Source: Alphaproteobacteria bacterium
Lineage (GTDB): Bacteria > Pseudomonadota > Alphaproteobacteria > CAAHEQ01 > UBA3637
DNA: 64,000 nt
Assembly (NCBI GenBank): GCA_017453485.1
Contig: JAFTEW010000058.1
Location: 1,890 to 65,889, forward strand
Reading direction: 5' to 3'
Below are positions 29,916-32,343 of this stretch, in pieces. Position numbers and translations under genes: made by a program. The notes under the pieces are model-generated. The model was given only the letters and a program-made list of their open reading frames with translations. It made no database searches and was not told the DNA's origin. How positions within the stretch are numbered: the stretch's first letter is position 1; every line of letters starts with the position of its first letter.

Positions 29916-30356
29916 ATGATGATGAAAAAATTATTAACAGTCACAACTTTGGCTTTATTGACAACGGCTTGTGCCGGTCCTTTGTGCCAATCCCGCGGAT
30001 GCAAAGTTGTTTTATCAGATTCCGCCGCCAAAAATGCGCCGGTTTTGTTTGACTTTGATTCGGCCAAATTGACAGCCGCCGGTGAATCGGCTTTGGCTCC
30101 GTATGCCGAATACCTGAACAATAATGCCAAAAAGACGGCCACAATCGCCGGTTATACCGATGATCGCGGGGATGCCACCTACAATTTGGATTTAAGCCAA
30201 CGTCGTGCCAATGCCGCCAAAGCCTATTTGGTTGAAAAGGGTGTTGCCGCGAATCGTTTAAAGACGGTTGGTTACGGTGAAACGAACTTTGTTGCCGATA
30301 ATGCTTCTGCCGAAGGTCGGGCACAAAACCGCCGTATTGAATTGGAATTTAATTAA
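29916..30356 (+). CDS. OmpA-family peptidoglycan-associated lipoprotein (Pal-like)
   Basis: Lipobox LTTAC. The OmpA_C motif is present: GYTDDRGDATYNLDLSQRRANAAKAYL...GYGE...NRRIE. Confidence 0.85.
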   Translation: MMMKKLLTVTTLALLTTACAGPLCQSRGCKVVLSDSAAKNAPVLFDFDSAKLTAAGESALAPYAEYLNNNAKKTATIAGYTDDRGDATYNLDLSQRRANAAKAYLVEKGVAANRLKTVGYGETNFVADNASAEGRAQNRRIELEFN

Positions 30357-30373
30357 GATTTCATTCTTTCACG

Positions 30374-30402
30374 AATCCCCCGTATAATACGGGGGATTTT
30401 TT
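30374..30402 (+). terminator. rho-independent terminator after the Pal-like gene
   Basis: AATCCCCCGtataataCGGGGGATT followed by TTTT. Confidence 0.75.
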
Positions 30403-30543
30403 ATGCTTTGTCCAAACAATTTTCTTGTTTTTCCAAAATTTATCTGATATGCTCCATTTTGAATCGATTGGTTATCGATTCGGGGTTTGAAAGCCTCTTA
30501 AAGTTGCCCGGTGCGGGTATTAATAATGCACCTTTTGGTCGTT

Positions 30544-30646
30544 CGACTGGAAGGTCGCAAAATAGGCCGTTCAGTCGGCTAATATGCACACTATCACTTT
30601 AATAGCTTTCAACTTCCAGTCGTCCCTCACCAGGACGTACTTTTTT
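30544..30646 (+). promoter_or_regulatory. candidate transcription-attenuation leader (terminator/antiterminator) upstream of the pilin-like Cys-rich gene
   Basis: CGACTGGAAG (30544-30553) is perfectly complementary to CTTCCAGTCG (30613-30622). That element overlaps the 5' arm of the terminator-like hairpin AGTCGTCC...GGACGtACT followed by T6 (30618-30646). A second CAGTCG copy at 30572-30577 offers a third pairing. Confidence 0.45.
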
Positions 30647-30658
30647 AGGGGAAGCGCT

Positions 30659-32134
30659 ATGAAACGGAATAAGACAGAGTTGGGACGGAGTATGGTAGAG
30701 ATGTTGGGGACGCTGGCCATTATGGGGGTTCTCACCATCGGGGGGATTGCCGGCTATAACTATGCCATTACGAAACATCGGGCCAATACGCTGTTTACAG
30801 AAGCCAAAATGAATGCCGTTCAAATTGCCGGATTAGCATTGACCCACGGATTGCCGGAAGAATTTTCCTTAAACACAGATACTTACCATCTAAATTATGA
30901 AAAAGAATCCGATATCGGGTATGTTTTGTATGCTAATGACATAGCTACTGACGTTTGTCGGATCGTTCAACGAAACCGGAAAGTATCTTGGGCGGAATTA
31001 GTTCTGATTAACGAGGGACAAGGATGTTTGGACACGGATAACCTGATTGAATTTTATATCAACACCCGGATGGATACGGAAACGACCAATCCCGATCGGG
31101 CTGATTTGTGCGAATCCGATGCGGATTGCGGGGAATGCGGGACCTGTCAACCCGGTGGTGTTTGCCTGTTTAAAAATGATTCTTGCCCCGACCCTGCCAA
31201 ACCTTACTGTAATCGCGGCACCTGCCAGGGATGTGAAGACGGTAAGTATCGAAATGTGAACGGAACATGCGTCAGTTGCGATACCATCAGTAAAACAACC
31301 CCGTTTGAATGCCATACATGCCCCAACCATTTTATCTCCACACAAGGGTATTGTTACGATTGTGAAAATACGGTAAATGTTGCGCTGGCTGCAACGGATG
31401 AGGAATGTTACAGTTGCCCTAACCGATTAAATGCCGGTCGTTATTGTTATCACTGCAATTCAAAATTTTCCCATGAAACGGCCGATGTTGCGCTTTGTTC
31501 AAAATGCGCCAATCGCTATGTGACTTATCGGGGATGCTTTTTATGTGAGGGAGAGGTGTCCGCTGACCATAAATCCTGTATTTTTCACTGTCCGTCGGGT
31601 TATTTCGGCAGTCACAGAGGTTGCCAACCTTGTGATAGTTCCGAAGCACGCGTCTTTATGCAACCTGCCAATGATGCCGACGGCCGTGCCGATTGTGAAT
31701 CATGTCCCAATCGGGAATATGTTTCAAATGGGCATAGCAACCCCGCTGATGGCCGCTACTGCGCCATAAAATGTGATGATCCGGATAAATTTTTGGATGC
31801 AAATGGAAACTGTCGCAATTGTGACAGCGATTCATTTGCTTTGGGTTGGGATAACGGACCCAATGTGAATACGATTTATAAACCGTTTTTGGAAAAATGC
31901 TTATCCTGCCCAAATATGATCCGTGATAATAGCAATAGTGCTTCTTGTGTCAATTTGAACAGCACGGCCCAAACATGGTGTTTCACACCGGACCGATGCA
32001 AACAATATTTTAAGGGTAAACGCTATGTTGCTAAGGCAACCTGGGTCTATCAATGCACGCTGTGTCCGGAAAAAGATTCCGAAGCCTGGCATAACTTGAC
32101 AGCCGAGCAACAGGAACAATGTACCCCCGGTTAA
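30659..32134 (+). CDS. type IV pilin/pseudopilin-leader protein with large Cys-rich (CxxC / CxxCPN repeat) C-terminal domain
   Basis: The N-terminus MKRNKTELG|RSMVEMLGTLAIMGVLTIGG is a class III (prepilin) signal with Glu at +5 and a hydrophobic helix. About 43 Cys follow, mostly as CxxC pairs, with five CxxC(P/A)N repeats. The start is at the internal ATG after AGGGGA. Confidence 0.7.
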   Translation: MKRNKTELGRSMVEMLGTLAIMGVLTIGGIAGYNYAITKHRANTLFTEAKMNAVQIAGLALTHGLPEEFSLNTDTYHLNYEKESDIGYVLYANDIATDVCRIVQRNRKVSWAELVLINEGQGCLDTDNLIEFYINTRMDTETTNPDRADLCESDADCGECGTCQPGGVCLFKNDSCPDPAKPYCNRGTCQGCEDGKYRNVNGTCVSCDTISKTTPFECHTCPNHFISTQGYCYDCENTVNVALAATDEECYSCPNRLNAGRYCYHCNSKFSHETADVALCSKCANRYVTYRGCFLCEGEVSADHKSCIFHCPSGYFGSHRGCQPCDSSEARVFMQPANDADGRADCESCPNREYVSNGHSNPADGRYCAIKCDDPDKFLDANGNCRNCDSDSFALGWDNGPNVNTIYKPFLEKCLSCPNMIRDNSNSASCVNLNSTAQTWCFTPDRCKQYFKGKRYVAKATWVYQCTLCPEKDSEAWHNLTAEQQEQCTPG

Positions 32135-32204: not shown

Positions 32205-32281
32205 GCGCCCGTAGCTCAATTGGATAGAGCATCTGACTACGGATCAGAAGGTTGTAAGTTCGAATCCTGCCGGGCGCGCCA
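32205..32281 (+). tRNA. tRNA-Arg (anticodon ACG)
   Basis: Cloverleaf folded by hand. Acceptor GCGCCCG/CGGGCGC, D arm GCTC-AATTGGAT-AGAGC, anticodon arm TCTGA-CTACGGA-TCAGA, T loop TTCGAAT, encoded CCA. Confidence 0.9.
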
Positions 32282-32343
32282 TTTAATACCGATCCTTTGG
32301 GTCGGTTTTTTTATGCCTGTCATTTCTAATGACTCTTGCTCTT

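What the first reader, a model, noticed from the sequence alone, without database searches (positions are those of the whole stretch)
30659..32134. Type IV pilin-leader protein fused to a ~330-aa Cys-rich domain with CxxC pairs and five CxxC(P/A)N repeats
Seen in sequence: the N-terminus MKRNKTELG|RSMVEMLGTLAIMGVLTIGGIAGY has the prepilin peptidase site architecture (Gly at -1, Glu at +5, hydrophobic helix). After a ~130-aa pilin-like globular part, the protein contains by my count 43 Cys. Almost all are arranged as CxxC pairs spaced ~10-20 aa apart. They include CHTCPN, CYSCPN, CSKCAN, CESCPN and CLSCPN. The pattern (C..C..G.Y....C..C) resembles eukaryotic furin-like / Giardia VSP-type Cys-rich repeats more than any bacterial pilin domain I know. 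No pilus assembly genes (pilB/C/D/Q or gsp) are in the window. Inference: this is a minor-pilin or pseudopilin tip adhesin displaying a disulfide- or metal-stabilised eukaryote-like repeat module, which fits a host-associated lifestyle.
Basis: partly seen in the sequence, partly recalled or inferred. Interest (0 to 1): 0.6.

Follow-up and report, generated by a model that had tools for sequence, protein, structure and literature searches.

The report
Cysteine-rich modular pilin with RNA switch
This gene of an uncultured gut alphaproteobacterium encodes a pilus-subunit-like "handle" fused to a long cysteine-rich rod, one member of a very large undescribed family that is probably displayed on type IVb pili, and it sits behind a conserved, previously uncatalogued RNA switch.

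Summary
ORF 30659-32134 encodes 491 aa with 43 Cys, 14 CxxC and five CxxC(P/A)N motifs.

The N-terminus has every sequence feature of a class III (prepilin) signal: Gly-1, Glu+5 and a predicted 54-residue helix. A small head with a conserved Cys pair follows, then a linker, then a ~340-aa Cys-rich tail.

Standard Pfam and NCBIfam models and Foldseek do not call it a pilin. A family profile does hit solved type IV pilins almost exclusively, though weakly, and aligns to the IncI1 type IVb pilin PilS.

The family is large (about 7,500 50%-identity clusters) and almost confined to uncultured gut and rumen Alphaproteobacteria. The window's nearest relatives carry an R64-like pilL-N-O-Q-R operon, plus short major-pilin-sized proteins with the same GRSMVEML leader. 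No prepilin peptidase was found, and the window's own genome could not be searched.

The tail matches no described family and only weakly resembles furin-like, GCC2_GCC3 or VSP repeats. Even Cys counts in 85% of relatives imply paired cysteines.

Best reading: a modular minor pilin or adhesin of a type IVb pilus.

New here: a covarying ~115-nt leader RNA with alternative anti-antiterminator, antiterminator and terminator helices precedes this gene and about a third of 91 family genes examined. It has no Rfam match.

The parts
30373..30399 (+). Intrinsic terminator of the upstream OmpA-family lipoprotein gene. It isolates the pilin gene as its own transcription unit.
   Evidence: 12-bp stem plus T-run. 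OmpA domain of ORF 29916-30356.
30531..30554 (+). P0 hairpin of the leader RNA (anti-antiterminator). Arm0 (30531-30541) pairs with the 5' arm of P1 (30544-30554).
   Evidence: RNAfold -10.9 kcal/mol, z -2.9 against shuffled arm0. The same hairpin, with G.U wobbles, is seen in most of 32 homologous leaders.
30544..30622 (+). Core of the conserved structured leader RNA. P1 encloses P2, the invariant AAAAUA loop, hairpin P2a, the invariant AAUAU loop and hairpin P3.
   Evidence: Covariance model R1, built without the window, hits exactly here at 63.4 bits, E 3e-12, the only hit in the 64 kb window. In the seed alignment 95% of cells pair and 15 of 22 pairs show double compensatory changes. No Rfam match at E<=10.
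30621..30646 (+). Terminator hairpin (30621-30637) plus T6 (30641-30646). It overlaps the 3' arm of P1 and so is mutually exclusive with a full P1.
   Evidence: The same layout follows all 32 model hits.
30647..30652 (+). Shine-Dalgarno AGGGGA, 6 nt before the ATG.
   Evidence: Read from the sequence.
30659..30685 (+). Leader peptide MKRNKTELG (residues 1-9). It is hydrophilic and ends in Gly, the predicted prepilin peptidase cleavage site.
   Evidence: Compared with the class III signal definition in PMC8179133.
30686..31069 (+). Pilin-like module (residues 10-137). It has an N-terminal helix (res 10-63) with Glu at +5, a four- to five-stranded sheet, a short helix, and the conserved pair Cys100/Cys123.
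   Evidence: AlphaFold head-only model, pLDDT 90, H8-63. Full-length model H10-63. Profile hits to pilins. hhalign to PilS. C100 and C123 are at least 90% conserved.
31070..31099 (+). Low-confidence linker (residues 138-147) between head and tail.
   Evidence: pLDDT below 50 for residues 138-147. The homology breakpoint with paralogue P0004 lies further in, after about residue 195: residues 41-145 are 93% and 146-195 are 84% identical, against 10% for 196-330.
31100..32131 (+). Cysteine-rich tail (residues 148-491) with 41 Cys. It has an N-terminal knot (C151-C192), then about 30-aa units of the type E-C-x2-C-P-N-R-x6-8-G-x-C-x2-C, one C-x3-C-P-S-G-Y-F furin-like motif, and a conserved C-terminus ...QCTPG.
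   Evidence: pLDDT 70-95 with short hairpins. No Pfam or NCBIfam match. Weak R-spondin match.
32205..32281 (+). tRNA-Arg(ACG) immediately downstream, followed by a terminator at 32288-32306.

Best explanation
The gene encodes a modular type IV pilin of the type IVb kind.

Inferred pathway:
1. The preprotein is inserted into the inner membrane by its hydrophobic N-terminal helix.
2. A prepilin peptidase cuts after Gly9, leaving Arg-Ser-Met-Val-Glu as the new N-terminus.
3. The small head (residues 10-137, one disulfide Cys100-Cys123) docks into a filament. That filament is built by an R64-like PilN/PilO/PilQ/PilR machine, mainly from short (114-148 aa) pilins that carry the same leader.
4. The ~340-residue tail projects outward as a rigid rod of small hairpin modules held by paired cysteines, most likely disulfides formed in the periplasm.
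5. Because a bulky tail is hard to fit into the pilus shaft, the protein is most likely a low-abundance or tip-located subunit that mediates adhesion in the gut.

The cell carries many such genes with swapped heads and tails, which suggests a repertoire of alternative surface specificities.

Expression is gated before the start codon by a structured leader RNA. By default a 5' hairpin (P0) sequesters one arm of helix P1, so the terminator forms. When the P1-P2-P3 junction is stabilised by an unknown ligand or factor, P1 forms, the terminator is disrupted and the gene is read through.

Shown: the sequence architecture, family size and taxonomic range, mosaicism, the machine in relatives, and RNA covariation.

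Inferred: cleavage, incorporation into pili, disulfides, adhesion, and the direction and signal of the RNA switch.
For: Prepilin signal:
- All class III signal features are present and near-invariant in the family.
- A 54-56-residue N-terminal helix is predicted to start at the cleavage site.
- With the head profile A2, 12 of 16 PDB hits are type IV pilins. The best are FimA at E 0.0015 and TcpA at E 0.003, and the TcpA alignment reaches the Cys-bearing strand motif.
- hhalign to the IncI1 major pilin PilS aligns 114 columns at E 1.7e-4.

Machine in relatives:
- 16 species-level MAGs of the same clade carry pilL-pilN-pilO2-pilQ-pilR in IncI1 gene order (27-32% identity, E down to 1e-48; Pfam TcpQ, Secretin, PAP_PilO, T2SSE, T2SSF).
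- 13 of these MAGs also hold family pilin loci.
- The window's closest SmpB relatives (88, 86, 80 and 79% identity) are among the MAGs that carry the operon.
- In one MAG a GRSMVEML ORF directly follows pilR.
- Short, major-pilin-sized members with the same leader exist, often in tandem.

Tail and family:
- The mature Cys count is even in 148 of 175 relatives (p 2e-21).
- Head and tail are mosaic between paralogues.
- Contigs of the head of a closely related (P0004-like) paralogue occur in a sheep gut metatranscriptome.

Leader RNA.
Against: - Pfam N_methyl and NCBIfam TIGR02532 do not match this protein even at E<=1. N_methyl matches only 6 of 21 relatives, at E>=0.029.
- Foldseek finds no pilin among the top hits for either the full-length model or the pLDDT-90 head model.
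- Arg at +1 is unusual for pilins.
- No A24 prepilin peptidase was found in the operons, in about 1.5 Mb of relatives' loci, or in the window.
- The window's own genome could not be searched.
- The gene is not next to any pilus gene.
- This protein has an odd number of Cys (43), so at least one is unpaired.
- There is no direct evidence of surface display or binding.
Confidence: 0.65

Rival explanations
1. The conserved N-terminus is only an uncleaved signal-anchor. The protein stays tethered in the inner membrane, or is released some other way, and exposes its Cys-rich rod in the periplasm or on the surface without being part of any filament.
For: Stock pilin models do not match. No pilin fold is found by Foldseek. 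No prepilin peptidase was found. The gene is isolated among housekeeping genes.
Against: A plain signal-anchor would not need an invariant Gly-Arg-Ser-Met-Val-Glu motif in 111 of 112 relatives. The family profile hits pilins specifically. Short pilin-sized proteins share the leader. The clade carries a type IVb machine whose operon lacks pilin genes of any other kind in most loci.
Confidence: 0.15
2. The protein is not a minor or tip subunit. It is one of many alternative main subunits (an antigenic-variation repertoire), each able to build its own filament with the rod decorating the whole shaft. Alternatively it is a pseudopilin of a secretion-type (T2SS-like) piston.
For: The family is very large and each genome holds many paralogues. 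Heads and tails are mosaic, with conserved 5' and 3' ends that could act as recombination arms. A shared leader RNA suggests common control.
Against: A 340-aa tail on every subunit is sterically hard to pack in a type IV filament (inference from known pilus structures). Short 114-148-aa members look like the natural shaft subunits. The only machine seen is of the PilN/PilQ/PilR/TcpQ type IVb pilus kind, and no T2SS genes were seen in the loci examined.
Confidence: 0.12
3. The paired CxxC motifs bind zinc or another metal, as in zinc-ribbon or DnaJ-type Cys4 sites, rather than forming disulfides.
For: Two CxxC knuckles about 10 residues apart is a classic Cys4 layout. The whole-family profile weakly hits the DnaJ Cys-rich domain (E 0.019). 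Even Cys counts fit Cys4 sites as well as disulfides.
Against: A protein exported unfolded through the inner membrane into an oxidising periplasm normally forms disulfides (general knowledge). The best weak similarities are to fully disulfide-bonded extracellular repeats: R-spondin furin-like repeats at E 0.0065, and Ephrin_rec_like or VSP-bearing proteins among family-profile hits. The motif C-x3-C-P-S-G-Y-F is furin-repeat-like.
Confidence: 0.1

Closest known systems
Modular type IV pilins (S. sanguinis PilB and PilC; ETEC CofB; concept of Raynaud et al. 2021, PMC8179133)
   Same: A small pilin module with a class III signal, joined by a short linker to a bulky extra module that is proposed to be presented by the filament.
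   Different: The extra module here is a ~340-aa Cys-rich repeat rod with no database signature. The leader is G|RSMVE, which stock models do not recognise. The family runs to thousands of clusters, many per genome, in one uncultured lineage.
IncI1 (R64/ColIb-P9) thin pilus: PilS major pilin, PilV shufflon-variable adhesin, and the PilL-PilR machine
   Same: Relatives carry pilL-N-O-Q-R in the same order. The head aligns to PilS, including the V..VP...C..I motif. The C-terminal part varies on a constant N-terminal part, as in PilV.
   Different: There is no detectable similarity to PilV. No pilS/T/U/V genes follow pilR in most loci, and no prepilin peptidase is in the operon. Diversity comes from many dispersed full-length genes. 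A shufflon was not looked for. The locus is chromosomal, not on a plasmid.
Furin-like, GCC2_GCC3 (Ephrin_rec_like, PF07699), Giardia VSP (PF03302) and NCD3G cysteine-rich repeats
   Same: Repeated C-x2-C ... C-x2-C hairpin modules and one C-x3-C-P-x-G-Y-F motif. The family profile weakly hits R-spondin-1 (E 0.0065). It also finds giant proteins, among them a SCUB2-like protein of the clam Mya arenaria and an unidentified metagenome protein rich in Ephrin_rec_like repeats with a weak VSP match. NCD3G matches 3 of 21 relatives.
   Different: This protein matches none of these Pfam models at E<=1. The 30-aa C-x2-C-P-N-R unit has no PDB sequence match. Cys-rich composition inflates such scores, so homology is unproven.
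Riboswitch or attenuator leaders of pilus genes (for example the c-di-GMP-II riboswitch before C. difficile pilA1; recalled from memory, not tested)
   Same: A structured 5' leader with an intrinsic terminator directly upstream of pilin genes.
   Different: No Rfam family, including the c-di-GMP classes, matches at E<=10. The ligand or factor is unknown. The three-helix P0/P1/terminator competition and the AAAAUA and AAUAU loops are specific to this motif.

Membership tests
Type IV pilin (class III signal peptide protein) | Short hydrophilic leader ending in Gly or Ala at -1 | tested here: met
   MKRNKTELG, Gly9. Gly is invariant in the head alignment.
Type IV pilin (class III signal peptide protein) | Glu at +5 within a stretch of about 21 mostly hydrophobic residues, the start of an alpha-1 helix of about 50 residues | tested here: met
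   R10-S-M-V-E14, then MLGTLAIMGVLTIGGIAGY. AlphaFold helix 10-63 or 8-63. Definition taken from PMC8179133.
Type IV pilin (class III signal peptide protein) | Match to the curated N-terminal methylation models (Pfam PF07963, NCBIfam TIGR02532) | tested here: not met
   No hit at E<=1 for this protein. Only 6 of 21 relatives match, at E>=0.029.
Type IV pilin (class III signal peptide protein) | Sequence-profile relationship to solved pilins | tested here: inconclusive
   The family head profile gives 12 of 16 PDB hits as pilins, but at E 0.0015-0.75. hhalign to PilS gives E 1.7e-4 at probability 50%. The short-member profile gives only E 0.74.
Type IV pilin (class III signal peptide protein) | Globular head with the pilin alpha-beta roll, recognisable by structure comparison | tested here: not met
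   Foldseek against the PDB gives no pilin in the top 50 and a best E of 0.035 (type III secretion chaperones) for the pLDDT-90 head model. The full-length model gives the same result. The order of secondary structure elements is pilin-like, but that is not a test.
Type IV pilin (class III signal peptide protein) | Cognate prepilin peptidase (A24) in the genome, and cleavage after Gly | not testable with these tools
   Genome search was shut. None was found in operons, loci or the window with an IncI1-PilU HMM or a motif search. A word-based search from PilU reached only enterobacterial proteins.
Type IV pilin (class III signal peptide protein) | Assembly machine (secretin, ATPase, platform) in the same organism | tested here: inconclusive
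The machine is present in 16 related MAGs, including the closest SmpB relatives. Run X1, which holds the window at about 10x depth, has contigs at about 8-10x depth that match parts of pilN, pilQ and pilR at roughly 80% identity. The window's own genome was not searchable.
Type IVb pilin subclass (PilS/TcpA-like) | Residue +1 is not Phe; there is a Cys-bearing strand motif; a disulfide lies in the C-terminal part of the head | tested here: met
   +1 is Arg. The motif f..V..V...VC..i aligns to TcpA and PilS. C100 and C123 are at least 90% conserved. The long leader typical of type IVb is not present (9 aa).
Modular pilin (pilin module plus grafted module) | Pilin module joined by a linker to a domain not specific to pilus biology | tested here: met
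   Head residues 10-137, low-confidence linker 138-147, independent tail. Heads and tails recombine independently among paralogues.
Furin-like / GCC2_GCC3 / VSP cysteine-rich repeats | Significant match to PF00757, PF07699, PF03302 or to solved furin-like repeats | tested here: inconclusive
   No Pfam hit for this protein. R-spondin-1 at E 0.0065 with the whole-family profile. The repeat-unit profile has no PDB hit. Family-profile hits include proteins with 18 Ephrin_rec_like repeats.
Known riboswitch or leader RNA families (Rfam 15) | Match to a curated covariance model | tested here: not met
   No hit overlaps 30531-30646 at E<=10.

The most novel reading that the evidence does not exclude
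The ~115-nt leader (30531-30646) is a new class of ligand-sensing riboswitch, or a factor-dependent antiterminator. It co-ordinately gates a whole repertoire of pilin genes, both short shaft-type and long modular adhesin-type, in uncultured gut Alphaproteobacteria. One signal would then decide when the cell deploys its type IVb pili and which Cys-rich, eukaryote-like modules it shows. The structured, covarying RNA itself is close to certain. The probability given is for a specific small-molecule or dedicated-factor switch.
Probability: 0.35. Interest if true: 0.85.

Novelty: new variant of a known kind. Interest (0 to 1): 0.63.

Why it matters
Uncultured Alphaproteobacteria are common in human, pig and ruminant guts but almost nothing is known about how they attach or interact.

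This gene belongs to a family of thousands of unannotated surface-type proteins built on one unusual pilin handle (G|RSMVEML) that standard annotation misses. The family would be a large new set of modular type IV pilins, with eukaryote-like disulfide-rich modules as candidate host- or microbe-binding parts.

The conserved leader RNA gives a direct experimental handle on how the repertoire is controlled, and it is a candidate new regulatory RNA class.

Practically, a profile for this leader would re-annotate thousands of 'hypothetical proteins' in gut metagenomes.

Tried and rejected
- Pfam and NCBIfam on the protein gave nothing.
- Searching the window's own genome for the peptidase, machine, Dsb genes and paralogues failed because the tool was shut.
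- R64 itself (AP005147) is not in the plasmid collection. ColIb-P9 was used instead.
- The prepilin peptidase was hunted three ways, all negative. These were a GxGDxK motif (which did not even report the IncI1 PilU present among the loci scanned, so it is a weak test), a word-based homologue search from PilU (enterobacterial proteins only) and a PilU-family HMM on all ORFs of the loci and the window.
- The GspE-ATPase motif scan of the first 82 pilin-centred loci was negative. The machine was found only after tblastn with IncI1 proteins.
- The gene convergent to pilR in L101 is a Sec-type Cys-rich repeat protein, not a family pilin.
- I considered that the 10-nt inverted repeat 30544-30553 / 30613-30622 marks an invertible DNA promoter. 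I rejected this. The arms covary between loci and the competing P0 hairpin uses G.U wobbles, so the signal is at RNA level. The metagenome contigs showed no inversion joint, though contigs are a weak test.
- There is no homopolymer phase-variation tract before or inside the 5' end of this gene.
- Synteny: relatives keep M24-peptidase-smpB but have no pilin gene there.
- A short-pilin profile does not hit solved pilins convincingly.
- Literature: the leader motif string appears in no paper held.
Full report
**1. What is there**

The + strand ORF ending at 32134 can be read from ATG 30584, but the real start is almost certainly ATG 30659. AGGGGA sits 6 nt upstream of it. The preceding 130 nt are occupied by a structured leader that ends in a terminator hairpin and a T6 run.

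The 491-aa product has 43 Cys, 14 CxxC motifs and two CxxxC motifs. 'Almost all Cys in CxxC pairs' is somewhat overstated, since the count is 28 of 43.

The gene is monocistronic:
- A strong terminator (30373-30399) closes the upstream OmpA-family gene.
- tRNA-Arg (32205-32281) and another terminator follow the pilin gene.
- The ten nearest genes are housekeeping: RNase E/G, Obg, HlyIII, a trypsin-like protease, OmpA, SmpB, M24 peptidase, PrmA, CorA and Sua5.

No pilus gene is in the window. This was checked by tblastn with IncI1 Pil proteins and with the clade's own PilL/N/O/Q/R, and by ATPase motif.

**2. Anatomy of the protein**

AlphaFold (21-sequence alignment, mean pLDDT 79) predicts four parts:
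- a helix at residues 10-63, starting exactly at the putative cleavage site;
- a sheet of four to five strands with a short helix, up to residue 135;
- a low-confidence linker at 138-147;
- a tail of short hairpins and helical turns, pLDDT 70-95.

A head-only model built from 37 diverse heads reaches pLDDT 90 with the same elements. Cys100 and Cys123 in the head are at least 90% conserved.

The tail begins with a nine-Cys knot (C151-C192). It continues with units of about 30 aa whose consensus in relatives is x-x-D-A-x-E-C-A-K-C-P-N-R-F-x4-G-x-C-x2-C. It includes one C-x3-C-P-S-G-Y-F motif and ends in a conserved ...QCTPG.

**3. Is it a pilin?**

Evidence for:
- Every sequence feature of a class III signal peptide, as defined in PMC8179133, is present.
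- G-R-S-M-V-E-M-L is found in 111 of 112 motif-bearing homologues.
- A profile of 37 heads searched against all PDB sequences returns 16 hits, 12 of them type IV pilins. FimA scores E 0.0015 and TcpA E 0.003, and the TcpA alignment extends to the Cys-bearing strand.
- hhalign against the IncI1 thin-pilus major pilin PilS aligns 114 columns at E 1.7e-4. The alignment includes the cleavage site, Glu5 and the motif V..VP...C..I.

Evidence against:
- Pfam N_methyl and NCBIfam models do not match this protein. N_methyl matches relatives only faintly.
- Foldseek finds no pilin for either model.
- PilV shows no similarity.
- A profile of the short family members hits FimA only at E 0.74.

So the pilin identity rests on the signal motif, weak but specific profile matches, and context.

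**4. Context in relatives**

Family size and range:
- The word-based search found 139 homologues. All are from metagenomes or 'MAG: Alphaproteobacteria bacterium', and the closest are 47-51% identical.
- The exhaustive profile search found 7,513 clusters at E<=1e-3, of which 4,757 are at E<=1e-10.
- In species-representative genomes there are at least 571 loci. In the 80 loci listed, nearly all come from uncultured gut or rumen Alphaproteobacteria, with up to about ten per genome.

Assembly machine:
- tblastn with ColIb-P9 (IncI1) Pil proteins found a PilN-type secretin and PilL near one family gene.
- Using that secretin as query gave 16 loci with pilL-pilN-pilO2-pilQ-pilR in IncI1 order. Precomputed Pfam annotation confirmed TcpQ, Secretin, PAP_PilO, T2SSE and T2SSF.
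- Thirteen of the 16 MAGs are also among the 80 family loci.
- The MAGs closest to the window by SmpB identity (88, 86, 80 and 79%) all carry the operon.
- In one MAG a GRSMVEML ORF directly follows pilR.

Size classes: the family is bimodal. In the loci I fetched, 19 members are 114-148 aa (mature length). That is the size of a major pilin, and several lie in tandem arrays. The rest are 228-895 aa.

This gives a coherent picture of short shaft pilins plus many modular ones.

Gaps:
- No A24 prepilin peptidase was found anywhere I could look.
- The window's own genome could not be searched.
- Run X1, the gut-metagenome run that holds the window at about 10x depth, has contigs at about 8-10x depth that match parts of pilN, pilQ and pilR at roughly 80% identity. 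This is only circumstantial.

**5. The tail**

- There is no Pfam or NCBIfam family for it.
- The whole-family profile weakly hits R-spondin-1 furin-like repeats (E 0.0065) and the DnaJ Cys-rich domain (E 0.019).
- In the exhaustive search the tail part of the profile also matches giant proteins. One is a SCUB2-like protein of the clam Mya arenaria. Another, an unidentified metagenome protein, has 18 Ephrin_rec_like (GCC2_GCC3) repeats and a weak VSP match.
- NCD3G matches three relatives.
- The 30-aa unit alone has no PDB match.

Among 175 relatives with at least 10 Cys, 148 have an even count (p 2e-21). The cysteines are therefore paired. Given export to the periplasm, disulfides are more likely than metal sites, but this is inference. 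This protein itself has an odd count.

**6. Mosaic evolution**

- Paralogue P0004 is 93% identical in residues 41-145 but only 10-20% identical in 196-430.
- P0005 shows the opposite pattern.
- In gut-metagenome assemblies that contain this gene, contigs break at 30683-30712, 31121-31150 and 32063-32092. A second form shares the head and the last ~25 codons but has a different middle.
- P0004 lies in a different housekeeping context.
- Relatives that keep M24-peptidase-smpB have no pilin gene at this site.

Heads and tails are thus exchanged among dispersed genes.

**7. The leader RNA (outside the given coordinates, but part of the gene)**

Discovery:
- The 10-nt inverted repeat 30544-30553 / 30613-30622 recurs upstream of many family genes with different but complementary arms.
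- An alignment of 21 leaders gives a consensus in which 16 of 21 pairs show double compensatory changes.

Test of a hand-drawn structure (P1 9 bp, P2 6 bp, P2a 3 bp, P3 4 bp) on 20 sequences, excluding the window:
- 95.2% of cells pair, against 27-42% when the partners are slid.
- 15 of 22 pairs covary.
- No shuffle out of 500 reaches the observed covariation score.

Covariance model built without the window:
- It hits the window only at 30544-30622, at 63.4 bits and E 3e-12.
- It gives 32 strong hits in 1.39 Mb of pilin-centred loci. Thirty of them lie 60-305 nt upstream of a GRSMVEML codon on the same strand.
- It gives no hit in 0.83 Mb of control loci chosen by SmpB.

Switch architecture:
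- Upstream of P1, a hairpin (P0) pairs an 'arm0' with the 5' arm of P1, often through G.U wobbles. This argues for RNA rather than a DNA recombination site.
- Downstream, the terminator stem borrows 2-5 nt of the 3' arm of P1.
- This is the architecture of a transcription attenuator or riboswitch. P0 is the anti-antiterminator, P1 the antiterminator, and the invariant loops AAAAUA and AAUAU sit in the junction.

Rfam 15 has no match at E<=10. The ligand or factor is unknown.

**8. Verdict**

The finding is real. It is best read as a modular type IVb-type pilin, probably a minor or tip adhesin, from a huge, unannotated, lineage-restricted family under control of a novel structured leader.

The design (pilin handle plus grafted module) is known. 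The handle variant, the module, the scale of the family and the RNA are not.

Earlier notes of this scan on sibling genes reach the same family-level reading. I re-derived the machine in relatives and the family size independently, but I could not check their claim that the operon lies in this very genome.

Noticed in passing
window 30531-30646: Conserved, covarying leader RNA (P0/P1/P2/P2a/P3 plus terminator) upstream of this gene and of about a third of 91 family genes examined. It has no Rfam match and is a candidate new riboswitch or attenuator class.
   Followed up: yes
window 30683-30712, 31121-31150, 32063-32092: Metagenome assembly graphs break at these three conserved stretches. A P0004-like paralogue shares the head (7 differences in 468 nt) and the last ~25 codons but has a different middle, so the ends may act as recombination arms for tail exchange.
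   Followed up: partly
L036, L050, L051, L054, L077 (relatives): Arrays of two to four short (114-148 aa) GRSMVEML pilins, several in tandem, with 0-5 Cys, often ending in ...KQS or ...KQN. They are candidate major pilins of the clade's type IVb pilus.
   Followed up: partly
L101 11488-13407 (-), L103 11488-13575 (-), L102 11488-11970 (-): Convergent to pilR lies a Sec-signal, Cys-rich protein followed by ~20-aa 'ITGTATS..GGQL.GISSSGT' repeats. Its repeat number differs (639 vs 695 aa, or fragmented) between assemblies that have an identical PilR. It is a second hypervariable surface-type protein beside the pilus operon.
   Followed up: no
L053 1288-1362: One strong hit of the leader-RNA model is not followed by a pilin gene. 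The next genes are a NagB-like ORF on the other strand and a porin-like ORF. It may be an orphan or relic copy.
   Followed up: partly
L101 1322-1708 (-) and 1-783: A TrbC/VirB2-type pilin gene and a two-component system (histidine kinase and OmpR-type response regulator, also seen in L049) lie immediately upstream of the pilL-R operon in relatives. They are possible regulators of the pilus.
   Followed up: no
window 32205-32281: tRNA-Arg(ACG) lies directly after the pilin gene. Relatives keep M24-peptidase-smpB but lack the pilin gene at that site, so the gene's position here is lineage-specific.
   Followed up: partly
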